Below, piece by piece: positions 38,761 through 50,072 of a stretch of 64,000 bases of DNA. The notes under the pieces are model-generated. The model was not told where the DNA came from and did not search any database. It saw nothing but the letters and a program-made list of their open reading frames with translations. The translations under genes were made by a program, and so were the position numbers. The stretch's first letter is position 1. The number at the start of each line of letters is the position of its first letter. Source of the stretch: a virus (taxonomy: Duplodnaviria; Caudoviricetes); the IMG/VR virus record IMGVR_UViG_2974778606_000001, positions 32,001 to 96,000 of that record; one strand, 5' to 3'.

Positions 38761-39363
38761 ATGACTGATGTAGATATTGTACTGATTGTAGACCGTTCTG
38801 GTAGCATGGCTACTATCCAGATGGAAGCAGAAACGGCCATCAATCAGTTTCTCAAGGACCAGAAGGAACTTGAGGGTGACGTGTTCGTTACTTTCGTGCA
38901 ATTCGACAACAAGTATGAGCAGGTTTTTGAGAAGGTGAATCTTCCCAATGTTCCTCGTGTGGAGATTACTCCTCGCGGCATGACTGCCCTGCTTGACGCA
39001 ATCGGTCGAACCGTAGTGAACTATGTTCCACGAACTGAGAAGACTATCTACGTCATCATGACTGATGGCCTGGAGAATGCTTCTCAGGAGTGGACAAATG
39101 ATGCGGTCAAGAATCTGATTGAAGAAGAAAAGCAGCACGGAAGTGAGTTTGTCTATCTTGGTGCAAATCAAGATGCTGTATCTGTAGGTGCTAAGATGGG
39201 AATTCCCGTTGCAAGCAGCCTAACATTTGCGGCAGACAAGCAGGGGCTTGACGCAGTATCTCGAAGTATGACAAGCTACGTATCAGCGACTCGCTCTGGA
39301 CTCGCATATGAGTTCACCGATGAGGACCGCAAGAACGCTACTGGCTTGACAGACGAAGAGTGA
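38761..39363 (+). CDS. vWA domain protein
   Basis: DRSGSM MIDAS, TALLDA, MTDGLENAS. Confidence 0.9.
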   Translation: MTDVDIVLIVDRSGSMATIQMEAETAINQFLKDQKELEGDVFVTFVQFDNKYEQVFEKVNLPNVPRVEITPRGMTALLDAIGRTVVNYVPRTEKTIYVIMTDGLENASQEWTNDAVKNLIEEEKQHGSEFVYLGANQDAVSVGAKMGIPVASSLTFAADKQGLDAVSRSMTSYVSATRSGLAYEFTDEDRKNATGLTDEE

Positions 39364-39374
39364 GCTGCTAAAGT
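39346..39374 (+). promoter_or_regulatory. Promoter heading the RNA gene region
   Basis: TTGACA-N17-TAAAGT; predicted start near 39381 matches the Y-like RNA 5' end. Confidence 0.75.
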
Positions 39375-39380
39375 AGTAAA

Positions 39381-39470
39381 TGTGGGTCGAACGAGATTCG
39401 GTTATCTCAAACAATTGGTGATTGAATCGCCCCGTGCAGGGGCTCTCCGAAGCTCAAATATTTATCCACA
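39381..39470 (+). ncRNA. Y-RNA-like RNA 1
   Basis: TGTGGGT/ATCCACA terminal stem, GTCGAACG motif, GAGATTCGG/CCGAAGCTC stem, TTATCT. Confidence 0.7.
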
Positions 39471-39474
39471 CAAT

Positions 39475-39545
39475 GCATCGGTAGTTTAATGGTAGAACGC
39501 CTGACTTCCAATCAGACAGCGCGGGTTCGATTCCCGCTCGGTGCT
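39475..39545 (+). tRNA. tRNA-Gly(TCC)
   Basis: Cloverleaf, loop CTTCCAA, U73. Confidence 0.92.
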
Positions 39546-39667
39546 CTGACTGTTCTCTTGAAGTGCCAGCATTAGCAGAGAGAATGCCGTTGGCGTCTGG
39601 CAACGCACGAATGGCGTCCGCTAGGTAGCACCTAGCAGGGAGAGGGCAATGTTTATCTCCCATACAT

Positions 39668-39738
39668 TCCCCTTTGGTGTAACGGCAACACAACAGACTC
39701 TGAATCTGTAGTTCCTAGTTCGAATCTAGGTTGGGGAG
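39668..39738 (+). tRNA. tRNA-Gln(CTG)
   Basis: ACAGA-CTCTGAA-TCTGT. Confidence 0.9.
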
Positions 39739-39945
39739 CTGGTCCGACTTCGTGATATCGGCGGAAATAACGGAACCGGAACTCACATAATAACCATGGT
39801 AAAAGTGAGGAATGGCGAAGGGAAATATGCGGGAAGCGTAGGGTAAAACCACCTCGGACCGACAACTTGAAGGTGAGCAGGTTGCATACTAGTTAGCGTA
39901 ATCGAACCTCCTGCATTAACATTGGCGTACTAACACCTTCAACAT

Positions 39946-40016
39946 ATGTCCTAAGTGTTACGGTAGCACGGAAGGCTCCAACCCTTCAAGCGTGGGTTCG
40001 ACTCCTACAGGACATG
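39946..40016 (+). tRNA. tRNA-Trp(CCA)
   Basis: GAAGG-CTCCAAC-CCTTC. Confidence 0.92.
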
Positions 40017-40063
40017 CTTAAAAGCCCCGACTTCGGTCGGGGCAAAACCATTTAGGAGGAAAG

Positions 40064-40573
40064 TTGGGATACTACACAGATTTCAGACTGAGTGTTGAAG
40101 GTTCTGGCCCGGTGTATGATAAGCTGATGGAGCAGAAGGATAAGGTCATCATCTCTCCTGGCGACTACGATTGGAATTTCGGCCGGTGGGTAAGTGACCA
40201 CTATACCGAAAATGCAAAGTGGTACGACTGGGAAAGTGACATGAAATCATTCTCTCTCGAATGGCCAAACGTTCTGTTCATCCTTGAGGGAAGTGGCGAG
40301 GAGCCTGGCGACATGTGGAAGGCATGGTTCAGAAATGGTGCCATGCGTAAGATTGAAGCCAAGATAGTCTTTGAGACTATCGACCCAGAGCTTGACAAGT
40401 ACCTTCCATACGACTATGATTTGGAGAAGAGGTTGGCCAAGAAGTACATGGACGACCTCAAGGAACGCAAGAAGTCTCTAGAAGCTGAGCTACACAGACT
40501 TCAGTCAATGCTTGACAACAGCGTCTCAGACGATGTAAGCTTCAAGAAGACGGGCGGCAAGGACAAGAGTTGA
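40064..40573 (+). CDS. Hypothetical protein
   Basis: AGGAGG RBS; 169 aa. Confidence 0.75.
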   Translation: MGYYTDFRLSVEGSGPVYDKLMEQKDKVIISPGDYDWNFGRWVSDHYTENAKWYDWESDMKSFSLEWPNVLFILEGSGEEPGDMWKAWFRNGAMRKIEAKIVFETIDPELDKYLPYDYDLEKRLAKKYMDDLKERKKSLEAELHRLQSMLDNSVSDDVSFKKTGGKDKS

Positions 40574-40598
40574 CACCGCCGAGAGCGTCTGCTAAGAT
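40570..40598 (+). promoter_or_regulatory. Sigma70/HrdB-type promoter
   Basis: TTGACA-N17-TAAGAT. Confidence 0.7.
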
Positions 40599-40629
40599 TA
40601 AGTACAACGCAGCAAGCGATTGCTGCTAT

Positions 40630-40701
40630 CAGGCACGGGGAAGATGGTAATCCGTTGGCTTTGGAAGCCTAAGACACTCGGTTCGATTCCGAGGTGCCTG
40701 A
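40630..40701 (+). tRNA. tRNA-Pro(TGG), atypical A37
   Basis: CAGGCAC/GTGCCTG acceptor; loop TTTGGAA. Confidence 0.82.
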
Positions 40702-40836
40702 CCGAATGTAGCTCCTAGGGGCTACACGTCCTGCGAGGGTGAGTGGTGGAGCGCCTGAATCTTGCGAGGTTCGGGACCGAGTTCGAGTCTCGGCACACTG
40801 CGTACTGGGGCTGATACGATAACTCAGCAAATACTT

Positions 40837-40910
40837 CGGGATGTGGCGCAGTTTGGTAGCGCGGTGCGTTTGGGGCGCAATGGTCGCAGGTTCGAATCCT
40901 GTCATCCCGA
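40837..40910 (+). tRNA. tRNA-Pro(TGG)
   Basis: CGGGATG/CATCCCG acceptor; loop TTTGGGG. Confidence 0.93.
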
Positions 40911-40913
40911 CAA

Positions 40914-41063
40914 TTTGGGTCGAAAGAAAACGGTTATCTTACACAATGGATAATAGGTTCGATTCCTATCTGTGCCGTAACAAGCACTGGTAAAGCCATC
41001 CGAGATGTGCGTGGTAGGATGGCATAAGGACTACGCTCTCTCCGTTCTCATCACTTACCTAAA
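40914..41063 (+). ncRNA. Y-RNA-like RNA 2 with T-arm
   Basis: TTTGGGT/ACCTAAA stem, GTCGAAAG, CGGTTATCT, ATAGG-TTCGATT-CCTAT T-arm, CTCCGTTCTCA. Confidence 0.72.
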
Positions 41064-41072
41064 GGATTTACT

Positions 41073-41594
41073 ATGACAGTACTTCTAAGGACAATCCACG
41101 GAAGCCATCTGTATGGCCTCGCTCACGCAGGGTCCGATAAGGATATCTACGAAGTCATTGCGACTAAGCGGACTGCGCGTAAGCGAAACATTAAGCAAAC
41201 CATCGTGGATGGAGTTGACAAAACGGTCGTAGACCTGTCAACATTCATGCATATGGTTGACGAATGCGTACCTCAAGCACTTGAAGCGCTATGGACGCCG
41301 GTCGCTGAGATTGATGAAATCCACGAATTCCGGACACAATATCGAGTGAATCGCGCCAAGATGAAGGAAGTATACATTCGAACCGCTCTGAACTTTGCCA
41401 AGCAAAATGATGTTAAGCGTAGGCGTCACGCCATCCGCTTGCTTCTGAACCTTGGTGCAGCATTGGAATACGGGAAGTTTAATCCCAGACTCTCCAATAT
41501 GGATAAGTTCATTCTCCGTTCATCACTCGGAGAATCTGGAGCATATGAGGACGTTTTTCTAGGCGTCCTTGATGAAGTACAAAAGTGGGTCTGA
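41073..41594 (+). CDS. Pol-beta-superfamily nucleotidyltransferase (RlaP-like)
   Basis: HGSHLYG.....SDKD motif. Confidence 0.82.
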   Translation: MTVLLRTIHGSHLYGLAHAGSDKDIYEVIATKRTARKRNIKQTIVDGVDKTVVDLSTFMHMVDECVPQALEALWTPVAEIDEIHEFRTQYRVNRAKMKEVYIRTALNFAKQNDVKRRRHAIRLLLNLGAALEYGKFNPRLSNMDKFILRSSLGESGAYEDVFLGVLDEVQKWV

Positions 41595-41611
41595 AAGACG
41601 GCTCACGCCAC

Positions 41612-41684
41612 TGGGCGGTGGCGAACCGGTGAACGCACCTCTCTGATAAGGAGGCATTGGAGGGTTCAACTCCCTCTCGCCCAA
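41612..41684 (+). tRNA. tRNA-Ile(GAT)
   Basis: CCTCT-CTGATAA-GGAGG. Confidence 0.88.
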
Positions 41685-41723
41685 CTGGTCTCAATGGTGA
41701 GACACTAACGAAATAACAATACA

Positions 41724-43541
41724 ATGGTAGATTTCGACAAGAGACATTCCAAGGAACTTGTGAAACGCCCTGACACAGACCTGGTTGATACCAGGTCTTT
41801 TCGGTCTTCCGGTCAGGGTGTATTTTCGCATGTCCGAAAAGGAATGAAAGTTACCACTAAGGCCATTCTGGATTGGGTCTACCTGAATGACTATAAGGAA
41901 GAGATTGCTAAGGCGAAGATTGATGGCAATTTGGAAAAGGCCCGAAAACTTAAGATTGAACAGGAAAAGCGCAGTGAGCCAAGGCGGAAGAGATTCTATT
42001 CTATTCTTGCTTTCCTGGCTGCCCTGACAGGATGGGCATACGTGACATGGAGCATCGTACCGATTCTCTTTGTTGCAGGTGCCGCGCTGGTTGTGATGTG
42101 GTTCGTAGGAAGTGGCTTCAAGCCATCTGAAGCCTTCTCTGCCATTACAGGAAGCATGGACGAGAAGGACGACCCTATGGAGCCTTTCCCAATTGCTGAC
42201 GCTCGCAACAGAGACGAGGCTCAGGAATGCTTGAGGAGAGCGCTTCTTGCTGAGGGAATCACTCCCAGGGTTATCTTGGAACCAACTCGTTACAATTGGG
42301 GATGGGAAATTCCGGTAGTTCTGAGAAAGGGTACTCCTGACGATGTAATGGCTAAGGCCAAGAAGATGGAAACTCTTATGAGACTTCCATCTGATGGAAT
42401 GCTGGTAGCAGCTACTAGATTCCGGGCCGAAGTAATTATCAGACTTATGCAGACTGACCCATTTGCTGATATGACATCAGAGCCTAGAGCAGAACCATTG
42501 TCTCGTTCTATCAAGAACAAGTACAAGATTGCTCAGCGAATGGACGGTACGCCTCTTGAAATCTCTTTGCTGAGAAACCACGCAGTTGTTATTGCTGCGC
42601 CTGGTGGTGGTAAGTCAATGTTCATGCGTAAGCTGGCAGACATCACCACTAGCTGTAGAGACTGTGTAACTTGGGACATTGACCCTGGTGGTAATGGACT
42701 TGAGGTCTTCGGAAGGGCTATCGCACGACGTGGTAGGACGGAAGAGGAAATTGAGGAAATGCTTACCGAGGCTCTGGAGTACACCAAGATTCGTGCAAAG
42801 AAGCTGACGAAGCTGGGAATGGGTGACAACTGGCAGCCAACCAAGGAGCATCCTGCCCTCATCATCTTCATTGATGAGTTTATTCAGCTAAACAAGAAGT
42901 GCAAGGATTTGGCCATTCAGATTATCCGCAATGGACGTAAGTCTGCTATTACTGTCGTACTGGCTGCACAGCAGGCTACAAAGGACACTCTTGGTGCCGC
43001 CATTGCAGATGCGGTGTCTATCAAGGTTATGTTTGCTTCTCGTCATGCTGACGTACCTCTCGTGTTTGGTGAGGGCATGTTGTCGCAGGGCTGGAGACCT
43101 GATAAGCTACATCCAGCATCAGGTGAGGATGTGGAAGACGCTGGTAAGTGCTACATTTTGGGCGGTGGCTCAAGAGAGCCTTACTTGTACAAGGTCTTCC
43201 CAATCGAACCAGATGAGGCAATCGAGATGGGTGATGAACGTGAAGCAGAGGGCATGCCCGAGCTTGACAAGGATACCTACCTAGATGTTACAGTGACAGA
43301 CACAACCGACAAGCGACTGCTTGAGGACGTGCTTGACATCTTTGAGAACTTCGACGAGAATGATTGGCTACCGGCCAGCATCTTGGTCAAGGAACTCAAG
43401 GGTTACGGTCACACCTTGACAGCCCGTCAGTTGCATGAGATTCTAGGGGATACCGGCCGAGAGAGCCGTATTTGGGAAGGGTCCAAGTACAAGGTGGCTG
43501 GTTACTTCCGAAAGAACATCGAGAAGCAATTGGAGAAGTAA
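41724..43541 (+). CDS. FtsK/SpoIIIE-family DNA translocase, Streptomyces TraB-like
   Basis: Two N-terminal TM helices, APGGGKS, IFIDE, GRK..I....A.Q, short C-terminal wHTH-like domain. Confidence 0.85.
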   Translation: MVDFDKRHSKELVKRPDTDLVDTRSFRSSGQGVFSHVRKGMKVTTKAILDWVYLNDYKEEIAKAKIDGNLEKARKLKIEQEKRSEPRRKRFYSILAFLAALTGWAYVTWSIVPILFVAGAALVVMWFVGSGFKPSEAFSAITGSMDEKDDPMEPFPIADARNRDEAQECLRRALLAEGITPRVILEPTRYNWGWEIPVVLRKGTPDDVMAKAKKMETLMRLPSDGMLVAATRFRAEVIIRLMQTDPFADMTSEPRAEPLSRSIKNKYKIAQRMDGTPLEISLLRNHAVVIAAPGGGKSMFMRKLADITTSCRDCVTWDIDPGGNGLEVFGRAIARRGRTEEEIEEMLTEALEYTKIRAKKLTKLGMGDNWQPTKEHPALIIFIDEFIQLNKKCKDLAIQIIRNGRKSAITVVLAAQQATKDTLGAAIADAVSIKVMFASRHADVPLVFGEGMLSQGWRPDKLHPASGEDVEDAGKCYILGGGSREPYLYKVFPIEPDEAIEMGDEREAEGMPELDKDTYLDVTVTDTTDKRLLEDVLDIFENFDENDWLPASILVKELKGYGHTLTARQLHEILGDTGRESRIWEGSKYKVAGYFRKNIEKQLEK

Positions 43542-43542
43542 C

Positions 43543-43758
43543 ATGTGGACAGCGGGTGTAATCTTTTACCTCGCAGTCTGTGCTTACCTTTGTAAGAAGA
43601 AGGGTTGGCAGATTCATTACATTGCCTGGGGCATGGTTGGTGGACTGATTCTCGCCACCATCGTTCCGACCCTTCCAGCACAGACGAAGCAGACAATGGA
43701 AAACGCTGCTCAGGCAGTTGTTTCTATCTTCGAAAGTTCCGGCATCGGGCAGGGTTGA
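43543..43758 (+). CDS. Small membrane protein
   Basis: Two hydrophobic segments; follows translocase gene by 1 nt. Confidence 0.7.
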   Translation: MWTAGVIFYLAVCAYLCKKKGWQIHYIAWGMVGGLILATIVPTLPAQTKQTMENAAQAVVSIFESSGIGQG

Positions 43759-43783
43759 CAGCAACTCTGCCTCGCTGTAGGAT
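43755..43783 (+). promoter_or_regulatory. Sigma70/HrdB-type promoter
   Basis: TTGACA-N17-TAGGAT. Confidence 0.7.
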
Positions 43784-43816
43784 AGACTTAAACCTAGTCC
43801 TTGTGGGGCTAGCGGA

Positions 43817-43889
43817 GCGCCTGTAGCATAACGGTCGATGCATCTGTCTTATAAGCAGACGATAGGTGGTTCAATTCCACCCAGGCGCA
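43817..43889 (+). tRNA. tRNA-Ile(TAT)
   Basis: TCTGT-CTTATAA-GCAGA. Confidence 0.88.
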
Positions 43890-43916
43890 CTTCATAACTA
43901 CAATCTAGGGGCAAGA

Positions 43917-44081
43917 ATGGCTCTTACGCATTCCCACGGTACACGGGTTGTTGTGCTCAAGGGAAGTCACCGAAATCAAGTTGGCACTGTTACTGTCAAG
44001 GTCAGAATGAAGGTCATCATCCTTGACAAGGACAACGTCGAGCTGATGGGTGCCTCTGACGAAATGGTCAGGAAGCTGTGA
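43917..44081 (+). CDS. KOW-like microprotein
   Basis: GTRVVVLKGSHRNQVGTV. Confidence 0.65.
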   Translation: MALTHSHGTRVVVLKGSHRNQVGTVTVKVRMKVIILDKDNVELMGASDEMVRKL

Positions 44082-44260
44082 AGTGCAAGAAGTGTGGGGA
44101 ATCTGAGAAGGAAGTGCGTGTTGCTCCCATCGTAGGTGACCCACTATGTGAGAGATGCTGGAACGACGTTCAGAATGATATGCGTCGGAAAGGTGCAAAC
44201 TCTAAGAGCGAGTACGAAGAGTACGTCCGAACGCAATACAAGAGATGGCTGAGGAGCTGA
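44078..44260 (+). CDS. Small Zn-finger protein
   Basis: CKKC...CERC. Confidence 0.65.
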   Translation: MKCKKCGESEKEVRVAPIVGDPLCERCWNDVQNDMRRKGANSKSEYEEYVRTQYKRWLRS

Positions 44261-44262
44261 TT

Positions 44263-44436
44263 ATGGAAAGTAAGAAGCACCTTGAGGTCGGAGACACCGT
44301 TTACGTTCTTCATGCACGGGCGGAAGTCTGGGACCTTGTTCCTTCCAACACTGCTATGATTAAGGTGTTGATGAAGGAAGGCCCTTCTGAGGGCCAGGTT
44401 TTCCCTGTAGTCCTTAAGCAAGTTGAGCGCGGCTGA
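44263..44436 (+). CDS. SH3-like microprotein
   Basis: GAGGAG RBS; LEVGDTVYV. Confidence 0.6.
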   Translation: MESKKHLEVGDTVYVLHARAEVWDLVPSNTAMIKVLMKEGPSEGQVFPVVLKQVERG

Positions 44437-44639
44437 TGTTTCAAAAAGGGGACATCATTCGTGTAAAGCCAGGTAATACCAAAATGCCTAGAAAGTATTG
44501 GGGATTGACTGGTGTTATTTCTGGGCGAGAATCCTTTCTTGCTCGAAAGGTATTCCGGACAGATTACCTTATAGTTATGCATGGTAGTCTGGAACCTGCA
44601 ACCTTTAAGGAAAGCGACATAGAGCTTTACCGCCCCTGA
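44436..44639 (+). CDS. KOW/SH3-like microprotein
   Basis: FQKGDIIRV...GLTGVI...FKESDIE. Confidence 0.65.
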   Translation: MFQKGDIIRVKPGNTKMPRKYWGLTGVISGRESFLARKVFRTDYLIVMHGSLEPATFKESDIELYRP

Positions 44640-44649
44640 TGGGGCACAT

Positions 44650-44734
44650 GGAATGTAAGCGATTGGCTAGCAGGTATCTTGGAACGGTACTAAGGGTTTT
44701 ACAGCCCGGCTGGGTTCGATTCCCAGGCATTCCG
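44650..44734 (+). tRNA. tRNA-Ser(GGA)
   Basis: GTATC-TTGGAAC-GGTAC, long variable arm, G73. Confidence 0.85.
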
Positions 44735-44747
44735 CAGGAGGTGTGAT

Positions 44748-44966
44748 ATGATAATCTGTGGCGACACAGTGAAAGTAAAGCACGACCGTCCTAACGTGGA
44801 CCCTGCTTATTACGGTAAGCGTGGTAGGATTCATAAGAGGACTCGTATGCTTGGTGTTCTTGGTGCTGGGCAATACGAAATTATGTTCTTCGAAAGTGAC
44901 CTGAATCATCCAATTATGGGTGTCATGGGTGGCTTCAATGAAGATGACTTGGAAGTTGAACGCTGA
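44748..44966 (+). CDS. KOW/SH3-like microprotein
   Basis: GGAGG RBS; GDTVKV...GKRGRI...FNEDDLE. Confidence 0.7.
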   Translation: MIICGDTVKVKHDRPNVDPAYYGKRGRIHKRTRMLGVLGAGQYEIMFFESDLNHPIMGVMGGFNEDDLEVER

Positions 44967-44975
44967 CTTCCCTAT

Positions 44976-45061
44976 GGAGGCACGCATTGGTGGGCTTATC
45001 GGTCTTGAAAACCGTGATGGCGTAGTGATATGCCGTGGGGGTTCGATTCCCTCTGTCTCCG
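44976..45061 (+). tRNA. tRNA-Ser(TGA)
   Basis: Loop CTTGAAA, long variable arm, G73. Confidence 0.87.
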
Positions 45062-45065
45062 CTTC

Positions 45066-45094
45066 GCCCGGTACATAATGTACCGGGCATTTTT
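45066..45094 (+). terminator. Intrinsic terminator
   Basis: GCCCGGTACA-TAA-TGTACCGGGC then ATTTTT. Confidence 0.85.
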
Positions 45095-45105
45095 GTAGGA
45101 GCATA

Positions 45106-45258
45106 ATGCTAGGAAAAGGAAAGAAGCAGAAGGACTGCTATCATGCCAGAGTAAGAGAAATATATGGTGACGAAATCATCGCCTCTGGCTATAAGCGCGC
45201 CTACTGCTACGATTGCAAAAGATACCTGCCCGAACTACCTCCAGAGAGAAGAAAGTAA
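45106..45258 (+). CDS. 50-aa Zn-binding microprotein (not in ORF track)
   Basis: AGGAG RBS; CYH...CYDC. Confidence 0.6.
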   Translation: MLGKGKKQKDCYHARVREIYGDEIIASGYKRAYCYDCKRYLPELPPERRK

Positions 45259-45444
45259 ATGGCCAAGGAGTTCCCCAAGGGGAATAACAAGAGGGACTTC
45301 ATCGAGTTCCTTGAGAAGAACAGAATTGAATTCTGGTGCTCCATCTGCAATACCGAAAACCCTCGCAAGTGTCAGTGCTGGACAGACATTCAGCGATGGG
45401 AGCAGGTTGAGCTGTGGCAGGGTGAGGAGAGGCGCAAGAAGTGA
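45259..45444 (+). CDS. Small Cys-rich protein
   Basis: CSIC...CQC. Confidence 0.6.
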   Translation: MAKEFPKGNNKRDFIEFLEKNRIEFWCSICNTENPRKCQCWTDIQRWEQVELWQGEERRKK

Positions 45445-45833
45445 CAGCCGTTCTCATCGGTGTCCTGCTCCATTTCATTGGTGATTATCTCATTCAGACA
45501 GACTGGATGGCACAGCTAAAGACAAAGCGCTGGCTACCGGCCATTGTCCACGGTGTCACCTATGGTGTCCCATTCATGTTTGTCACGATGTCACCAATAG
45601 CTTTGGCTGTCATCATTGTCACTCACATTGTCATCGACCATTATCGACTGGCAAGACATGTTGTCTGGGCAAAGAACCAGCTAGCACCAAAAGAATGGCG
45701 GTATTCATGGGCTGAGGGTAACCTCACTGGATATCGCAATGACGCACCACCATGGTTGACAACCTGGTTGATGATTATCGCGGACAACACTCTGCATGTC
45801 ATCATCAACACTCTAGCCATCCTCTATCTATGA
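45441..45833 (+). CDS. DUF3307-like membrane protein
   Basis: HFIGDY..QT.WMA..K, H...DH, DNTLH. Confidence 0.8.
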   Translation: MTAVLIGVLLHFIGDYLIQTDWMAQLKTKRWLPAIVHGVTYGVPFMFVTMSPIALAVIIVTHIVIDHYRLARHVVWAKNQLAPKEWRYSWAEGNLTGYRNDAPPWLTTWLMIIADNTLHVIINTLAILYL

Positions 45834-45843
45834 GGATGGCTTT

Positions 45844-45940
45844 TGTCATTCTCAGGACAGTCTGTCACTTGTCCCGTGACATGTCCTGTGACACGATGAC
45901 ATGTCCAGTGACATCCATGTGACATGTCCTACGGCTGTCC
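45844..45940. repeat. Dense array of TGACATGTCC / TGTCA repeats
   Basis: Three TGACATGTCC copies plus several partial copies in 100 bp of non-coding DNA. Confidence 0.8.
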
Positions 45941-46084
45941 TCGCAATTTGAGAAAGAGGCGGCGGCTCCGGAGGTCGCATTCGTTTTGTTCAATCCTCAG
46001 AGCGCGGCCCGGCGGCCTTGAGGACGGAAGAATGTCTTAGAGACCAGATACAAGAGAGAAGACCTAATAGGTTCAAGGAGGGAG

Positions 46085-46114
46085 TTGACAGGATTCTCAG
46101 AGGTCTGCTAAGGT
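46085..46114 (+). promoter_or_regulatory. Promoter followed by AT-rich tract (to 46197)
   Basis: TTGACA-N18-TAAGGT. Confidence 0.65.
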
Positions 46115-46197
46115 GTAGTTACACTAGAAAAGAATAAAGAAAAATATCTAGAAAGAATCTAAACCGGTTCTAAATAATATAGAATAGATTAGAGAAT

Positions 46198-46476
46198 ATG
46201 AGACTATTTGAACTTCATAGAGATATAGACTCCTCTGGAGTCTCTGGCACAGGCGTTGTTGCTCAAGGTGTTGAGTTTGACAATCGTCAGTGTTGTATGA
46301 CATGGTTGACGGAGTGGAACTCAGTGGCTGTCTATCCCGACATCCAGACCCTTGAAGCTATCCATGGACACGGTGGCAACACTCGTGTAGTATGGGTGGA
46401 AGGCCCGGCGACACAGAAGTATGTAAGAGTTGCTGGTAAAGACAGACCAATTCAGAGAGTTGACAAGCTCTCTTGA
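46198..46476 (+). CDS. Hypothetical protein
   Basis: 92 aa downstream of promoter. Confidence 0.75.
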   Translation: MRLFELHRDIDSSGVSGTGVVAQGVEFDNRQCCMTWLTEWNSVAVYPDIQTLEAIHGHGGNTRVVWVEGPATQKYVRVAGKDRPIQRVDKLS

Positions 46477-46562
46477 GTCATGTAGAGTAAAACGTAGATG
46501 GTCGGCAAGCAGGTAAGAGAGGAACACAGGAGCTTGAGCGACAACCCCTCCACCATCACCTT

Positions 46563-46638
46563 GCCTCTGTAGTATAGTCTGGTCTAATGCACCTGATTGT
46601 CAATCAGGAAATCGCCGGTTCAAATCCGGTCAGGGGCG
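46563..46638 (+). tRNA. tRNA-Asp(GTC)
   Basis: CCTGA-TTGTCAA-TCAGG, G73. Confidence 0.92.
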
Positions 46639-46641
46639 CAT

Positions 46642-46842
46642 ATGAAATGGGATATAGAGCTGGTATTGGAGCATCAACCGACAGGGTTTGCTCGACAGAT
46701 AATGATGATAGGTCATCCAGCAGAATCCATGTTTGATATAGTAAGAACCCTGATAGAAAACTCAGCAGAACTAGCTGACGATGTCAGGGTCACTCACCTT
46801 GAAATAAGGGAGAATAATGGCAGCGATTCGATACTGCCCTAA
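46642..46842 (+). CDS. Hypothetical protein
   Basis: ATG 3 nt after tRNA-Asp. Confidence 0.55.
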   Translation: MKWDIELVLEHQPTGFARQIMMIGHPAESMFDIVRTLIENSAELADDVRVTHLEIRENNGSDSILP

Positions 46843-46996
46843 CTGCTTCAAGAATGTTCTCACACAGCCCTTGAAGCAGAGTTGCAGTGAGTGTGGACGA
46901 AAGCACACACTTCCTGTTGACAGAAGTCTTCCAATTCCGGAAGATAGAGGTAAGCACGATAGGTTTGTTGACTACCGAGAATACCGTGAGGATTAA
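46817..46996 (+). CDS. 59-aa Zn-ribbon protein (not in ORF track)
   Basis: GGGAG RBS; CPNC...CSEC. Confidence 0.65.
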   Translation: MAAIRYCPNCFKNVLTQPLKQSCSECGRKHTLPVDRSLPIPEDRGKHDRFVDYREYRED

Positions 46997-47238
46997 TGGC
47001 TGACAAGCAGTGGCTCGTAAAGGGTCATTACACCAAGGACGGAAAGCGAAAGCCTTTCGATAACGTTTATTCCGCTTCAAATAAGTCCGGTGCTGAACGG
47101 GCTGCCAAGGCTGACTATGATAGTTATGTCAATGGTGGATATGAGAAGGGGACCTTTGGCAAGCTCAATGTAACCCAGGTTAGTGAATGGACTGAGAAGG
47201 ACCGCAAGGCTTTTCTCAAGTCTAAGGGTATTAAGTGA
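46996..47238 (+). CDS. Hypothetical protein
   Basis: GAGGA RBS, 80 aa. Confidence 0.7.
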   Translation: MADKQWLVKGHYTKDGKRKPFDNVYSASNKSGAERAAKADYDSYVNGGYEKGTFGKLNVTQVSEWTEKDRKAFLKSKGIK

Positions 47239-47258
47239 AGAAGGCCCGGAAGGGCTGA

Positions 47259-47329
47259 CCCGGCATAGTGTAGTGGAAACACGATACATTGTCAGTGTAT
47301 TATCGAGGGTTCAATTCCCTCTGCCGGGA
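47259..47329 (+). tRNA. tRNA-Asp(GTC), atypical A73
   Basis: ATACA-TTGTCAG-TGTAT. Confidence 0.85.
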
Positions 47330-47333
47330 CTTT

Positions 47334-47443
47334 GCGGGTCGAAAGAGTAATCGGTTATCTTCCCAATTGAAATGAGAAACGGCAGGTTCGAATCCTGCAA
47401 GGGCCAAGGAACGGCCAACTCCGATTCTCACCAATATATCCGC
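47334..47443 (+). ncRNA. Y-RNA-like RNA 3 with T-arm
   Basis: GCGGGT/ATCCGC stem, GTCGAAAG, GAGTAATCGG/CCGATTCTC, TTATCT, GCAGG-TTCGAAT-CCTGC. Confidence 0.75.
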
Positions 47444-47449
47444 TACAGT

Positions 47450-47773
47450 ATGAATACTGAAGAAAGAATTGCAAAGTTCAAGGAACTCTGGAAGGAACAT
47501 ACATATTTCGAGGATGCCATGGGCTGGCTCGAAGATGAAATTCCAGAAGGAGAATTCAAGCCTAAGTGGGTTACCACTGTTGAAGAGGATGAGTCTCGCT
47601 GGATGATTCACACCCTTGAGGTGATGGAGATTGACGAAGGCGTATACGTTGGTGTACGCTGGGAGCGAGGCAAGACAGAGATGCAGGAAAACCTGTACGA
47701 AGACGACGATGTCTACCTTCTTGACAAGAAGATTGTTGAGAGAGTAGAGTGGGAGACTAAGAAGAGGCTATGA
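47450..47773 (+). CDS. Hypothetical acidic protein
   Basis: Start MNTEERI just after the Y-like RNA. Confidence 0.7.
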   Translation: MNTEERIAKFKELWKEHTYFEDAMGWLEDEIPEGEFKPKWVTTVEEDESRWMIHTLEVMEIDEGVYVGVRWERGKTEMQENLYEDDDVYLLDKKIVERVEWETKKRL

Positions 47774-48192
47774 AGAACTGGCTTGGACATGATATTGTCG
47801 TAGGCGCAGTTGTCTTTCGCGGTGGAAGGCAGGGAGACAGTTCCTCCTTCCGCGTCGGCGAAGTCGATGCAATCGACGAGACAAAGCGCACGGCTCGTGT
47901 AATCTGGCATTGGGTTCCTTGTCAACGGCCGGTGTGGGATAGTGACCAATATGAGTATTGGCATCAGGACGACAATCGGTATTACGTAGAGGGCCCAAGT
48001 GAGGCCCATACCCAGAAAACTCGATATAACATCAACGACCTTGTTCGTCTTGATGATGAAACTCTTGAGCGCCTGAATAAGCGTCATAAGCTTATCAAGG
48101 CAGCCATTCACTACAAGATTCGCAAGGAAGACTTTGCTCAGTTTGAGCACGATTTTGAAATGGGACTAATTCCCGAATACTCTATGCCTTAG
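47770..48192 (+). CDS. Hypothetical protein
   Basis: 140 aa, coupled to upstream gene. Confidence 0.7.
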   Translation: MKNWLGHDIVVGAVVFRGGRQGDSSSFRVGEVDAIDETKRTARVIWHWVPCQRPVWDSDQYEYWHQDDNRYYVEGPSEAHTQKTRYNINDLVRLDDETLERLNKRHKLIKAAIHYKIRKEDFAQFEHDFEMGLIPEYSMP

Positions 48193-48210
48193 AAAGGGCC
48201 GGTAAGAAAA

Positions 48211-49857
48211 ATGTCAAACGCACTTAATAACGCTGCCAAGAGTCTTAACAAGACTGCACAGACTCAGCGTGCTCGCAAGGACCAGGTCAAGAACAACGCT
48301 GGTGGATTCGTCTTCCAGGTTTCTGACCAGGCCAGGCTTGAGCGATTTCTGATTCTGGGTGTTGATGGTGGCACCTATTACGTATCTGAAGTTGACCACG
48401 CAAAGCATAACGTCGACTTCCTCAATGAGATGATTGAGCGAGACGAATCCTCTGTACTTAACACCATTGTGGACGTGTCTGTCAATGGTCGTGCGTACAA
48501 GCAGTCTCCTGCTCTGTTCGCTCTAGCCTCTGTTATTGCCCATGGCAAGGACAAGCAGGCGGTCAAGGCAGTATTCAATCGTGTCGTTCGTACAGGTACT
48601 CACCTGTATGAGTTGATGAACTACCTTACTTCACTCAATGTGGGTTGGGGTCGTTCAAAGCGAGAGATTGTTGCTTCTTGGTTTGACCGAGATGCTGACA
48701 AGCTGGCTTACCAGGCGGTCAAGTACCGTTCTCGTAAGTTTGGCGAGCAGACTTGGACGCTCCGAGATGTAATGCGTCTTTCCCACCCACGAGATGTGAA
48801 CACGTCTGTTGCAGACTTTGTTCTGGGCAAGCCTCATGACGCTATAGATGACCTTCGGGTTATCGAGGGCTTCAAGAAGATGCAGAAGGCTCAGTCAGTG
48901 GACGATGTTCACAGCGTTCTCCGTGAGTACGAGATGCTTTCATGGGAGGCAATCCCAACTCAGTTCCTCAAGGATGTGAGTGTATGGAAGCGAATCTTCG
49001 CTAACGGACAGCTTCGTGGCCAGGCTCTAGTCCGAAACATTACTCGCCTCGCGCGAATTGGTGCTTTCCAGGACATGCGCTTTGCTGCTGCTTATGCAGG
49101 ACAGCTCACGAATCAGGAGATGATTGTACAGACTCGTCTGCACCCAATCAACTTCCTGAACGCGACTGTTGTGTATAATGAAGGCCAGATGAAGACCGTA
49201 AGGGACCGATTTGGCTGGGAGCGTGAGGAGCGTGTCAAGGACTGGACGACTGAGAGTGTTATCGTAGATGCCCTCAATGAGGGATTCCACAAGGCATTCA
49301 AGGCTGTCGAGCCTGCTGGTAAGCGAACGATGCTAGCCATCGATGTTTCAGGTTCTATGAGTGCAAAGGCTAATGGTCTCGACCTTAGCTGTGCTCAGGT
49401 ATCTGCTGCAATGGCAATGACCATCGCTCGTACCGAGCCTGCTCACATCATCCGTGGCTTCACGTGTGACGGTTACAGCTATAGGAACAGTGGTCTTACT
49501 GACCTGGGTATTTCTGCCAGGACCGACCTTGCTACGGCAATGCGTAAGGTTCAGCGAAGTAACTTTGGTGGCACAGACTGTTCTCTTCCTATGGTCTGGG
49601 CAAAGCAGAATGATGTAGAGGTTGACACATTCGTCGTTATCACTGATAACGAGACGTATGCTGGCAACATTCACCCATTCCAAGCGCTGAAGGACTACCG
49701 TAAGGCAACTGGTATTGACGCAAGGCTCGCTGTTCTAGGAGTCGCATCAACTCCATTCACCATTGCGGACCCATCAGACGCAGGCATGATGGACTTCGTA
49801 GGATTTGACAGCAATGCGCCTCGTGTGCTGGCTGACTTCTCCGCAGGTCGCATCTGA
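48211..49857 (+). CDS. Ro60/Rsr-like TROVE + vWA RNA-binding protein
   Basis: NNAGGFVF, RFLILG..GGTYY, KYRSR, LHP, DVSGSM, GGTDCSLP, TDNET, GFD. Confidence 0.95.
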   Translation: MSNALNNAAKSLNKTAQTQRARKDQVKNNAGGFVFQVSDQARLERFLILGVDGGTYYVSEVDHAKHNVDFLNEMIERDESSVLNTIVDVSVNGRAYKQSPALFALASVIAHGKDKQAVKAVFNRVVRTGTHLYELMNYLTSLNVGWGRSKREIVASWFDRDADKLAYQAVKYRSRKFGEQTWTLRDVMRLSHPRDVNTSVADFVLGKPHDAIDDLRVIEGFKKMQKAQSVDDVHSVLREYEMLSWEAIPTQFLKDVSVWKRIFANGQLRGQALVRNITRLARIGAFQDMRFAAAYAGQLTNQEMIVQTRLHPINFLNATVVYNEGQMKTVRDRFGWEREERVKDWTTESVIVDALNEGFHKAFKAVEPAGKRTMLAIDVSGSMSAKANGLDLSCAQVSAAMAMTIARTEPAHIIRGFTCDGYSYRNSGLTDLGISARTDLATAMRKVQRSNFGGTDCSLPMVWAKQNDVEVDTFVVITDNETYAGNIHPFQALKDYRKATGIDARLAVLGVASTPFTIADPSDAGMMDFVGFDSNAPRVLADFSAGRI

Positions 49858-49860
49858 GCG

Positions 49861-49885
49861 AATCCCCTCTTCGGAGGGGATTTTT
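49861..49885 (+). terminator. Intrinsic terminator
   Basis: AATCCCCTC-TTCG-GAGGGGATT-TTT. Confidence 0.88.
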
Positions 49886-49899
49886 GCTATACTGGATAG

Positions 49900-50040
49900 A
49901 TGATAAGCAAAGAAGAAAGAAAAGAACTAAAGCTCGCAAGGTCAAAGGCAGAACTAGTAAGAACTGTGACTAGCATCTTCCAGATGATTATTGCTTCTGC
50001 GACTCTCATCATCCTGGTCTACGTCAACTTCATGCGTTGA
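49900..50040 (+). CDS. 46-aa leaderless membrane microprotein (not in ORF track)
   Basis: TGCTATACT 6 nt before ATG; hydrophobic C-terminus. Confidence 0.65.
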   Translation: MISKEERKELKLARSKAELVRTVTSIFQMIIASATLIILVYVNFMR

Positions 50041-50072
50041 CAGGCTGCGCGTCGTGGTGTAGAGTCTTACTC

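What the first reader, a model, noticed from the sequence alone, without database searches (positions are those of the whole stretch)
39381..49857. Three paralogous Y-RNA-like genes with phage Ro60 and a nucleotidyltransferase: candidate modular RNP for tRNA protection or repair
Seen: 39381-39470, 40914-41063 and 47334-47443 share one scaffold. It has a paired terminal stem ending GGGT, then CGAA(A/C)G, a second stem (GA..xxCGG / CCGxxxCTC), then TTATCT. Stems differ by compensatory changes, while the interiors are unrelated (one has no T-arm, two carry a tRNA T-arm plus different hairpins). RNA 1 starts at a predicted TSS; RNAs 2 and 3 start 3-4 nt after a tRNA. RNA 2 abuts the nucleotidyltransferase gene; RNA 3 is three genes upstream of Ro60. 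Known: bacterial Y RNAs bind Ro60/Rsr through a GNCGAAN(0-1)G motif and YrlA mimics tRNA; UUAUC is conserved in metazoan Y/sbRNA loops. Inference: one Ro60 uses interchangeable RNA adaptors to tether different effectors or to decoy anti-tRNA defences.
Basis: partly seen in the sequence, partly recalled or inferred. Interest (0 to 1): 0.92.

Follow-up and report, generated by a model that had tools for sequence, protein, structure and literature searches.

The report
Three phage Y RNAs for Ro60
A Streptomyces phage carries three unannotated small RNA genes that share the docking "handle" of Y RNAs, the known partner RNAs of the ring protein Ro60 that the phage also encodes. This is a solid new example of a known system, not a new kind of system.

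Summary
Window 39381-39470, 40914-41063 and 47333-47444 share one scaffold: a 6-7 bp terminal stem, a GGGUCGAA(A/C)G loop, a second stem, then UUAUCU. A covariance model (R1) built from this scaffold finds exactly these three sites in the whole 132,885-bp phage genome.

The same model finds 2-8 copies in each Ro60-encoding actinophage I tested, nearly all beside the Ro60 gene. It finds none in three Ro60-less phages, one of which (BillNye) demonstrably keeps the syntenic tRNA array. It also finds 120 copies in 68 of 80 actinobacterial rsr loci, 116 of them on the rsr strand and almost all within about 700 nt upstream of rsr. Thirteen of 15 handle pairs show compensatory changes.

These are therefore Y RNAs of the bacterial YrlA/YrlB kind, known since Chen et al. 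2014 (22 phages) and shown to bind Ro60 in Thermus phage phiLo (2025). They are unannotated in Streptomyces phage records, or miscalled as tRNA-Ser, and the Rfam YrlA model misses them.

The proposed link to the nucleotidyltransferase is not supported, because RlaP occurs independently of Ro60. Roles in tRNA repair or as decoys remain speculation.

This scan has noted similar multi-RNA Ro60 modules on other phage DNA, including a related "YrlA lacking the acceptor stem".

Verdict: new member of a known kind, moderate interest.

The parts
39346..39374 (+). Promoter-like site TTGACA-17 nt-TAAAGT with TG extension. It ends 7 nt before RNA 1.
   Evidence: 10 of 12 consensus matches, TG present; the -35 GGCTTGACAG and the -10 TGnTAnAGT, with their spacing, are invariant in 7 phages.
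39381..39470 (+). Y RNA 1 (class A, 90 nt, no T-arm). Handle 5' half 39381-39407, GC hairpin 39429-39443, handle 3' half 39447-39470. tRNA-Gly starts 4 nt downstream.
   Evidence: R1 63.1 bits, E 7e-12. Orthologues occur at the same place in Mildred21, NootNoot, Yaboi, Coruscant, Naboo and L004, with covarying stems.
39475..39546 (+). tRNA-Gly(UCC). Its RNase P site would set the 3' end of RNA 1 (inferred).
40837..40911 (+). tRNA-Pro(UGG). Its 3' processing would set the 5' end of RNA 2 (inferred).
40914..41063 (+). Y RNA 2 (class B, 150 nt). UUAUC/GAUAA hairpin 40934-40953, T-arm 40953-40969, hairpin 40972-40989, then a candidate pseudoknot 40995-41001/41017-41023 and 41007-41015/41030-41038.
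   Evidence: R1 69.4 bits. Consensus fold of 7 orthologues. Pseudoknot helices 95.5% paired, with 3 compensatory pairs.
41073..41594 (+). RlaP-family (Pol-beta) nucleotidyltransferase, 173 aa. It is a neighbour of RNA 2; its link to the Ro60 module is not supported.
   Evidence: Pfam PF10127 at 26.6 bits against a cut-off of 23. phrog_388. Its distribution is independent of Ro60.
47259..47330 (+). tRNA-Asp(GUC). Its 3' processing would set the 5' end of RNA 3 (inferred).
47333..47444 (+). Y RNA 3 (class C, about 111 nt). It is YrlA-like but has no acceptor-stem hairpin. Weak hairpin after UUAUC at 47358-47377, T-arm 47382-47398, GG-loop hairpin 47402-47416.
   Evidence: R1 94.7 bits, E 3e-19. 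The unconstrained minimum-free-energy fold equals the handle fold. The T-arm and third hairpin covary in 9 orthologues.
47450..47773 (+). orf107 (phrog_13073, function unknown). Its ATG lies 6 nt after RNA 3 with no Shine-Dalgarno sequence.
47770..48192 (+). orf140 (phrog_2596, function unknown).
48211..49857 (+). Ro60/Rsr orthologue, 548 aa (TROVE plus vWA_Ro60).
   Evidence: Pfam 3e-31 and 1e-59. Full-length match to D. radiodurans Rsr 2NVO at 7.5e-98 and to human and Xenopus Ro60 at about 1e-80.
49866..49879 (+). Terminator-like GC hairpin followed by a T-run, closing the Ro60 transcription unit.

Best explanation
The three elements are genes for Y RNAs, the noncoding partner RNAs of Ro60, belonging to the bacterial and actinophage YrlA/YrlB kind.

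**Shown by sequence comparison**
- All three share a conserved, covarying handle: terminal stem, GYCGAA internal loop, second stem, UUAUC.
- The handle occurs next to Ro60/rsr genes in phages and actinobacteria.
- It is missing from relatives that lack Ro60.

**Inferred from established Y RNA biology**
- The handle docks on the outer face of the phage Ro60 ring. The CGAA motif is needed for binding in Thermus phage phiLo.
- The three different inner modules give three kinds of Ro60 particle: hairpins only in RNA 1, T-arm plus hairpins and a pseudoknot in RNA 2, and T-arm plus a GG-loop hairpin in RNA 3.

**Inferred from gene layout**
- The RNAs are cut out of long phage transcripts by tRNA processing.
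- RNA 1 runs from its own promoter to the RNase P site of tRNA-Gly.
- RNAs 2 and 3 begin at the 3' processing sites of tRNA-Pro and tRNA-Asp.

**Most likely function (about 35%, by precedent only)**
The particles capture a host 3'-5' exoribonuclease such as PNPase, as in Deinococcus, Salmonella and phiLo. This would redirect or damp decay of structured RNAs during infection.
For: - **Motif.** 3 hits against 0 expected.
- **Model in the window's genome.** R1 finds exactly 3 hits in the 132,885-bp genome, all on the Ro60 strand within 9 kb upstream of Ro60, and none on the 33-plus tRNAs.
- **Covariation over 53 distinct copies.** 13 of 15 pairs show compensatory changes. There are 143 double-change cells against 46 in shuffles (0 of 500 reach the observed value), and 88% of cells are paired against 33-49% when partners are slid.
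- **Co-occurrence in whole genomes.** 8 of 8 Ro60-positive genomes have 3-8 hits. 0 of 3 Ro60-negative genomes have any, including BillNye, which keeps the syntenic tRNA array, and NiceHouse, a sister of Trina.
- **Bacterial rsr loci.** 120 R1 hits in 68 of 80 actinobacterial loci, 116 on the rsr strand, nearly all within about 700 nt upstream.
- **Overlap with Rfam YrlA.** R1 hits overlap sub-threshold YrlA matches in Boopy (52 bits), Alice (37) and Trina (24).
- **The protein.** The phage protein is a full-length Ro60.
- **Literature.**
  - GNCGAAN0-1G motif, multiple Y RNAs per locus, co-transcription with tRNA-Asp, and YrlA in 22 phages (PMC4201824).
  - CGAA mutation lowers phage Ro60 binding, and host PNPase is recruited (PMC12135203).
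Against: - There is no expression, end-mapping or binding data for any Streptomyces phage Y RNA.
- Rfam YrlA (RF02553) and Y_RNA give no match on the three RNAs even at E<=10.
- RNAs 1 and 2 lie 8.7 and 7.1 kb from Ro60, beyond the 4 kb used to define YrlA loci.
- For RNAs 1 and 2 the handle fold is 3.1 and 1.5 kcal/mol above the unconstrained minimum.
- RNAs 2 and 3 have no terminator and run straight into ORFs, so they might stay attached to mRNA.
- The effector is unknown.
Confidence: 0.82

Rival explanations
1. They are Ro60-binding RNAs, but they act mainly in cis. RNAs 2 and 3 would stay as 5' leaders of the RlaP mRNA and the orf107-orf140-Ro60 mRNA, so that Ro60 binding, or excision of the RNA, controls translation or stability of the downstream genes, including feedback on Ro60 itself.
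For: - RNA 2 ends 9 nt before the RlaP ATG, and its 3' stem strand overlaps the AAGGA ribosome-binding site.
- RNA 3 ends 6 nt before the orf107 ATG, which has no Shine-Dalgarno sequence.
- No terminator follows either RNA.
- The RNA 3-orf-orf-Ro60 order is conserved in relatives.
Against: - RNA 1 and many family members are followed by tRNAs or by other Y RNAs, not by ORFs.
- Coruscant keeps the RlaP gene directly after tRNA-Pro with no RNA 2.
- Bacterial Y RNAs are stable free RNAs processed from precursors (PMC4201824).
Confidence: 0.1
2. They are decayed tRNA genes or tRNA-array spacers: processing punctuation with T-arm remnants and no Ro60-related role.
For: - They sit flush against tRNAs inside a tRNA array, and two carry T-arms.
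- One orthologue is annotated as tRNA-Ser in Mildred21.
Against: - ARAGORN does not call them, and the Rfam tRNA model gives only 15 bits against a cut-off of 29.
- The conserved part is the non-tRNA handle, with strong covariation.
- BillNye keeps the same tRNA array but has lost both Ro60 and every handle RNA.
- The same handle lies upstream of bacterial rsr, where there is no tRNA array.
Confidence: 0.03
3. They are Ro60-bound Y RNAs whose T-arm modules act as tRNA decoys or docks. They would shield or help repair the phage's tRNAs against host anticodon nucleases, working with RlaP.
For: - The module is embedded in a 33-plus tRNA array and has T-arm mimicry.
- RlaP enzymes add 1-2 nt to damaged RNA 3' ends and help restore repaired tRNA function (PMC12776372).
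- Ro60/TROVE proteins are discussed as RNA-repair platforms in jumbo phages (PMC7824862).
Against: - RlaP and Ro60 occur independently of each other.
- No RtcB, Rnl2-type or LigT-type ligase is detectable in this phage genome.
- BillNye has the tRNA array without Ro60 or Y RNAs.
- There are no data on host nucleases.
Confidence: 0.1

Closest known systems
Bacterial and mycobacteriophage YrlA/YrlB Y RNAs with Rsr (Chen et al. 2014, PMC4201824; Rfam RF02553; YrlA structure 10.1101/312249)
   Same: - Encoded upstream of Ro60/rsr on the same strand.
- Paired 5' and 3' ends with a GNCGAAN0-1G motif on the 5' strand.
- Several Y RNAs per locus, at least one with a tRNA-like T-arm and at least one without a tRNA-like module.
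- The handle model built here detects the RNAs upstream of rsr in 68 of 80 actinobacterial loci and overlaps sub-threshold YrlA matches in three other phages.
   Different: - No Rfam YrlA score on any of the three.
- No canonical D-arm (GCUCA..GGUAGAGC).
- RNA 3 has no acceptor-stem hairpin between the T-arm and the GG-loop hairpin.
- There is an extra hairpin at UUAUC before the T-arm. This hairpin is also present in mycobacteriophage Alice.
- The genes are dispersed over 9 kb among tRNAs rather than lying within 4 kb of Ro60.
Thermus phage phiLo Ro60 with Yrl1 and Yrl2 (PMC12135203)
   Same: - A phage-encoded Ro60 with more than one phage-encoded Y-like RNA upstream.
- A stem-bulge-stem with a CGAA motif. 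In phiLo that motif is shown by mutagenesis to matter for binding.
- No phage-encoded effector in phiLo; host PNPase is recruited.
   Different: - The phiLo RNAs are simple hairpins directly next to the gene.
- Here there are three classes with T-arm modules, interleaved with tRNAs.
- Nothing has been tested experimentally for the Streptomyces phage.
Deinococcus radiodurans Yrn1/Yrn2 and the Ro60-Y RNA-PNPase (RYPER) complex
   Same: - Y RNAs processed from a precursor that also holds a tRNA (tRNA-Asp), as described in PMC4201824.
- A modular RNA that tethers Ro60 to an exoribonuclease.
   Different: - Yrn1 has a different arm order and no detectable sequence homology to YrlA-type RNAs.
- The effector for the phage RNAs is unknown.
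Animal Y RNAs and nematode stem-bulge RNAs (Rfam RF01656; PMC4726728)
   Same: - A Ro60-binding bulged stem followed directly by UUAUC at the base of the loop domain.
- The sbRNA model scores above its gathering cut-off on Nocardia members of the same handle family.
   Different: - The three window RNAs do not reach any reportable score with RF01656 or with Y_RNA.
- In animals UUAUC is tied to DNA replication initiation, which has no known bacterial counterpart.

Membership tests
Y RNA (Ro60/Rsr partner RNA, bacterial type) | Encoded near a Ro60/Rsr orthologue on the same strand | tested here: met
   All three are on the + strand, 0.77, 7.1 and 8.7 kb upstream of Ro60 at 48211-49857. Two of them lie beyond the 4 kb criterion used by Chen et al. 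2014.
Y RNA (Ro60/Rsr partner RNA, bacterial type) | 5' and 3' ends pair into a stem that carries GNCGAAN0-1G on the 5' strand | tested here: met
   GUCGAACG, GUCGAAAG and GUCGAAAG. Terminal stem 95.7% paired and second stem 81.2% paired over 53 copies, with compensatory change in 13 of 15 pairs.
Y RNA (Ro60/Rsr partner RNA, bacterial type) | Occurs together with Ro60 across genomes | tested here: met
   8 of 8 Ro60-positive phage genomes have hits and 0 of 3 Ro60-negative genomes do. 68 of 80 bacterial rsr loci have hits.
Y RNA (Ro60/Rsr partner RNA, bacterial type) | Physically bound and stabilised by Ro60 | not testable with these tools
   No RNA-protein prediction tool was available and no RNA run holds the stretch. 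Precedent only: phiLo EMSA and cryo-EM (PMC12135203).
YrlA (Rfam RF02553, circularly permuted tRNA mimic) | Match to the curated covariance model | tested here: not met
   No YrlA match on any of the three RNAs at the gathering score, or at E<=10 in a 12-kb or a 131-nt search. The only YrlA line in the window (40771-40864, 21.8 bits) is a T-arm followed by the next tRNA's D-arm, which is a known kind of false positive.
YrlA (Rfam RF02553, circularly permuted tRNA mimic) | T-arm, closed acceptor-like hairpin and D-arm, in that order, inside the Ro60-binding stem | tested here: inconclusive
   The T-arm is present and covaries in RNAs 2 and 3. RNA 2 has a hairpin in the acceptor position. RNA 3 has none, and only a GG-loop hairpin where the D-arm would be. 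There is no canonical D-arm sequence. RNA 1 has none of these arms.
tRNA (as annotated for the Mildred21 orthologue) | Cloverleaf recognised by tRNA finders | tested here: not met
   ARAGORN makes no call at the three sites. The Rfam tRNA model gives 15.3 bits on RNA 3 against a cut-off of 29.
Animal Y RNA / nematode sbRNA (RF00019, RF01656) | Match to the curated covariance model | tested here: not met
   No match on the window RNAs. RF01656 does pass its cut-off on three Nocardia RNAs of the same handle family.

The most novel reading that the evidence does not exclude
Each of the three conserved classes delivers the phage Ro60 to a different partner. The T-arm modules would serve as tRNA look-alikes that dock or decoy host enzymes acting on tRNAs, so that the Ro60-Y RNA set is a counter-defence or quality-control device for the phage's own large tRNA array. 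A second part of this reading is that the whole handle, including UUAUC and the 3' ACCAAYUU loop, is a direct homologue of the animal Y RNA/sbRNA handle, so UUAUC would be an ancient protein-contact site.
Probability: 0.12. Interest if true: 0.8.

Novelty: new member of a known kind. Interest (0 to 1): 0.45.

Why it matters
- It adds three real, conserved RNA genes per genome to more than 100 sequenced Streptomyces phages. Public records leave them blank or mislabel them: 'none' in 47 of the 50 records listed, and tRNA-Ser in Mildred21.
- A model of the handle alone finds Y RNAs that the curated YrlA model misses. It detects 2-8 per Ro60-bearing actinophage and up to four per actinobacterial rsr locus.
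- It provides a clean natural co-loss of Ro60 and its RNAs in BillNye and NiceHouse.
- The three classes, conserved across phages that can be grown and engineered, give a practical system for asking what different Y RNA modules recruit. That question is still open for most bacterial Y RNAs.

Tried and rejected
- **Rfam on the window** at the gathering score and at E<=10. No YrlA, Y_RNA or sbRNA match on the three RNAs, so family membership had to be established through a new model.
- **Public RNA data**. No RNA holder was listed. This says nothing about expression.
- **orf107 and orf140** against Pfam, PHROGs and the ESM Atlas. Only phage families of unknown function were found, so no effector candidate was identified.
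- **RlaP as a partner.** Rejected on its distribution and on Coruscant's layout.
- **A phage RNA ligase to complete a repair pathway.** RtcB, RNA_ligase (Rnl2-type) and 2_5_RNA_ligase2 were all absent from the genome.
- **NoodleTree** as a natural Ro60 deletion. It still has the three RNAs, but the deletion looks recent, so it is uninformative.
- **Single-sequence folding**. z-scores of only -0.9 to -2.4, and the handle was not recovered as the minimum-free-energy fold for RNAs 1 and 2. Comparative evidence was needed.
- **PDB sequence search with the nucleotidyltransferase**. No hit.
- **Not run.** Protein-complex prediction and structure prediction, because no specific protein pair was claimed to bind.

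Full report
**What the window is.** The 10.6-kb stretch matches Streptomyces phages of the Stanwilliamsviridae (cluster BE; Mildred21, Daubenski, NootNoot and others) at 83-89% nucleotide identity. The window lies at 32001-96000 of a complete 132,885-bp phage genome with terminal repeats. It holds at least 33 tRNA genes on the + strand.

The ORF at 48211-49857 is a full-length Ro60:
- Pfam TROVE 3e-31 and vWA_Ro60 1e-59.
- 7.5e-98 to Deinococcus Rsr and about 1e-80 to human and Xenopus Ro60.

The ORF at 41073-41594 is a short RlaP-family Pol-beta nucleotidyltransferase (26.6 bits, cut-off 23).

**The observation.** It is accurate.
- The pattern GGTCGAA-N4-14-GGTTATC occurs three times, at the stated places, against none in 100 shuffles.
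- Reading the sequence and a duplex search show the same layout in all three:
  - a 6-7 bp terminal stem ending G.U then U-A;
  - a 5' loop CGAA(A/C);
  - a second stem of 8-9 pairs with one mismatch or bulge;
  - UUAUCU, then a variable interior;
  - the 3' strand CCGxxxCUC, an A/C/U-rich 7-8 nt loop, and the closing strand.
- RNA 1 has two small hairpins and no T-arm. RNAs 2 and 3 have canonical T-arms.
- Single-sequence folding is weak evidence. Only RNA 3 gives the handle as its minimum-free-energy fold. Enforcing the handle costs 3.1 kcal/mol in RNA 1 and 1.5 kcal/mol in RNA 2.

**Comparative test.** I collected 23 copies from related phage loci, aligned them and built covariance model R1 with only the two handle stems as structure.
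- R1 finds exactly the three elements in the window and in the whole genome, at 63, 69 and 95 bits, and no tRNA.
- Across 14 sources it finds 55 matches, all on the Ro60 strand.
- On the 53 distinct copies, 13 of 15 pairs have compensatory changes. Double-change cells number 143 against 46 in shuffles (0 of 500), and 88% of cells are paired against 33-49% with slid partners.
- That alignment is fitted to the model and so leans towards the structure. The unfitted MAFFT alignment gives the same direction: 86% paired, 26 double-change cells against 9.

**Orthologous classes.**
- Class A (RNA 1) sits after a conserved promoter and before tRNA-Gly in Mildred21, NootNoot, Yaboi, Coruscant, Naboo and an uncultured contig. 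The -35 GGCTTGACAG, the extended -10 TGnTAnAGT and the 7-nt distance to the RNA are invariant.
- Class B (RNA 2) follows tRNA-Pro and precedes the nucleotidyltransferase in most BE phages. It is absent from Coruscant.
- Class C (RNA 3) follows tRNA-Asp and heads the orf-orf-Ro60 unit in all relatives. Its T-arm and third hairpin covary.
- Some relatives have a fourth class or a small fifth RNA in tandem.

**Link to Ro60.** Whole-genome scans gave these counts:

| Genome | Ro60 (TROVE) | R1 hits at E<=0.01 |
|---|---|---|
| Window phage | yes | 3 |
| Naboo | yes | 3 |
| Coruscant | yes | 3 |
| Belfort | yes | 6 |
| Forrest | yes | 7 |
| Stigma | yes | 6 |
| Rhodococcus phage Trina | yes | 8 |
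| Gordonia phage Boopy | yes | 4 |
| BillNye | no | 0 |
| NiceHouse | no | 0 |
| Gordonia phage Jumbo | no | 0 |

- Sources.
- In the Ro60-positive genomes nearly all hits lie within about 10 kb of Ro60 on its strand.
- Locus scans also gave 3 hits directly upstream of Ro60 in Mycobacterium phage Alice and 2 in Myrna.
- BillNye is the telling case. It keeps the same Pro-Pro-Gln-Trp-Ile-Ser-Asp tRNA order as its relatives, but the tRNAs are packed together with no handle RNAs and no Ro60.
- NiceHouse is a genus-mate of Trina.

**Link to known Y RNAs.**
- I used an alignment of seven phage Ro60 proteins to fetch 80 bacterial rsr loci, mostly Actinomycetota. R1, built only from Streptomyces phage sequences, gives 120 matches in 68 of them. 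Of these, 116 are on the rsr strand and almost all lie in the 700 nt before the start codon, often two to four in a row. That is where YrlA and YrlB lie in Mycobacterium smegmatis (PMC4201824).
- R1 hits overlap sub-threshold Rfam YrlA matches in Boopy (52 bits), Alice (37) and Trina (24).
- The Alice RNA shows the published YrlA order (T-arm, long acceptor-like hairpin, canonical D-arm) inside the same handle. It also has the UUGAAA-loop hairpin after UUACCU.
- RNA 3 looks like that RNA without the acceptor hairpin. RNA 2 keeps a hairpin in that position and adds a probable pseudoknot.
- The window RNAs themselves get no YrlA score, so I do not file them as members of Rfam RF02553. I file them in the wider Y RNA kind.

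**What is known, and what is new.**
- Chen et al. 2014 reported YrlA-like RNAs near Ro60 in 254 bacteria and 22 phages, the GNCGAAN0-1G motif, at least two Y RNAs per characterised species, and a Deinococcus precursor holding Yrn2, tRNA-Asp and Yrn1.
- The phiLo study (PMC12135203) showed two phage Y-like RNAs binding phage Ro60 through the CGAA motif and recruiting host PNPase.
- The adaptor idea is therefore the textbook model.
- New here: the Streptomyces phage members, their dispersal through a tRNA array up to 8.7 kb from Ro60, three conserved module classes, and the fact that curated models and GenBank annotation miss them (tRNA-Ser in Mildred21).
- My searches of the paper library held here found no paper describing Y RNAs in Streptomyces phages.
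- This scan has already followed up a related phage 'YrlA lacking the acceptor stem' and multi-RNA Ro60-like modules on other DNA.

**The nucleotidyltransferase.** RlaP enzymes add one or two nucleotides to damaged RNA 3' ends (PMC12776372). The gene's distribution does not follow Ro60:
- present in Ro60-less NiceHouse;
- absent from Ro60-bearing Forrest;
- far from Ro60 in Alice;
- placed directly after tRNA-Pro, with no RNA 2, in Coruscant.

No RtcB, Rnl2-type or LigT-type ligase is detectable in this genome. The adjacency is lineage-specific synteny, not evidence of a joint machine.

**UUAUC.** The motif is indeed conserved and functionally important in nematode sbRNAs and vertebrate Y RNAs (PMC4726728). 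The Rfam sbRNA model RF01656 unexpectedly passes its gathering score on three Nocardia Y RNAs of this handle family. The alignment runs through GG.CCG, GGUUAUC and the 3' CACCA..UG.CCG loop. Neither Chen et al. 2014 nor the phiLo paper mentions UUAUC. This hints that more of the handle than the CGAA motif is shared between bacterial or phage Y RNAs and animal Y RNAs. I did not test it further.

**Verdict.** The finding is real and well supported as Y RNA genes for the phage Ro60 (confidence about 0.8). Its mechanism is inferred from precedent. The RlaP, tRNA-repair and decoy layer is unsupported. Interest is moderate.

Noticed in passing
L081:3716-3846, L077:3735-3844, L049:3741-3846 (Nocardia rsr loci): The Rfam nematode stem-bulge RNA model RF01656 (an animal Y RNA homologue) scores above its gathering cut-off on the Y RNAs just upstream of rsr. 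The alignment covers GG.CCG, GGUUAUC and the 3' CACCA..UG.CCG loop. So the handle shared with animal Y RNAs is wider than the published CGAA motif.
   Followed up: partly
window 40995-41038: RNA 2 holds two interleaved helices, 40995-41001/41017-41023 and 41007-41015/41030-41038. This is a candidate H-type pseudoknot: 95.5% paired, with 3 compensatory pairs among 7 orthologues.
   Followed up: partly
L005:6224-6369, L006:4377-4522, L007:4187-4332: NootNoot, Peebs and EGole carry a fourth Y RNA class (146 nt, with a T-arm, directly after a tRNA) that the window's phage lacks. Yaboi, Coruscant and Naboo have a small 68-75 nt Y RNA in tandem after class C.
   Followed up: partly
Belfort MW365952.1 97835-97938; Forrest MZ820093.1 98591-98675; Stigma ON456343.1 98482-98585: Gilsonvirus phages each have one handle-model hit about 27 kb downstream of Ro60, far from the main cluster.
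   Followed up: no
L001:9047-9118; L015:5589-5928; L016:7631-7839: Public annotation overlaps Y RNAs with other calls: tRNA-Ser(tga) in Mildred21, small ORFs gp218 and gp219 in mycobacteriophage Alice, and a 209-nt pseudo 'tRNA-OTHER' in Trina.
   Followed up: partly
window 40704-40836: An unassigned element with a T-arm-like hairpin (CCGAGUUCGAGUCUCGG) lies between the two tRNA-Pro genes. It has only weak Rfam lines (mascRNA-like at 21 bits; the YrlA line is a T-arm followed by the next tRNA's D-arm). ARAGORN and R1 do not call it.
   Followed up: no
window 47444-47452: The ATG of orf107 lies 6 nt after the end of RNA 3 with no Shine-Dalgarno sequence, and the same is true in relatives. Excising the Y RNA would leave a nearly leaderless mRNA for the orf107-orf140-Ro60 unit.
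   Followed up: no
window 39346-50065, + strand: Nine promoter-like sites with a perfect TTGACA -35, mostly with a 17-nt spacer and a TAnnnT -10, several directly ahead of tRNAs. 24 sites were found against 11 expected in shuffles.
   Followed up: no
L086:2001-2117, L087:1139-1269, L089:2403-2529, L096:1398-1527: In Promicromonospora-type loci one handle-model hit lies 1.5-3 kb upstream of rsr on the opposite strand.
   Followed up: no
L021:4558-4902 (Mycobacterium phage NoodleTree): Ro60 is cut down to its first roughly 80 codons by a deletion, yet the three upstream Y RNAs are intact.
   Followed up: partly
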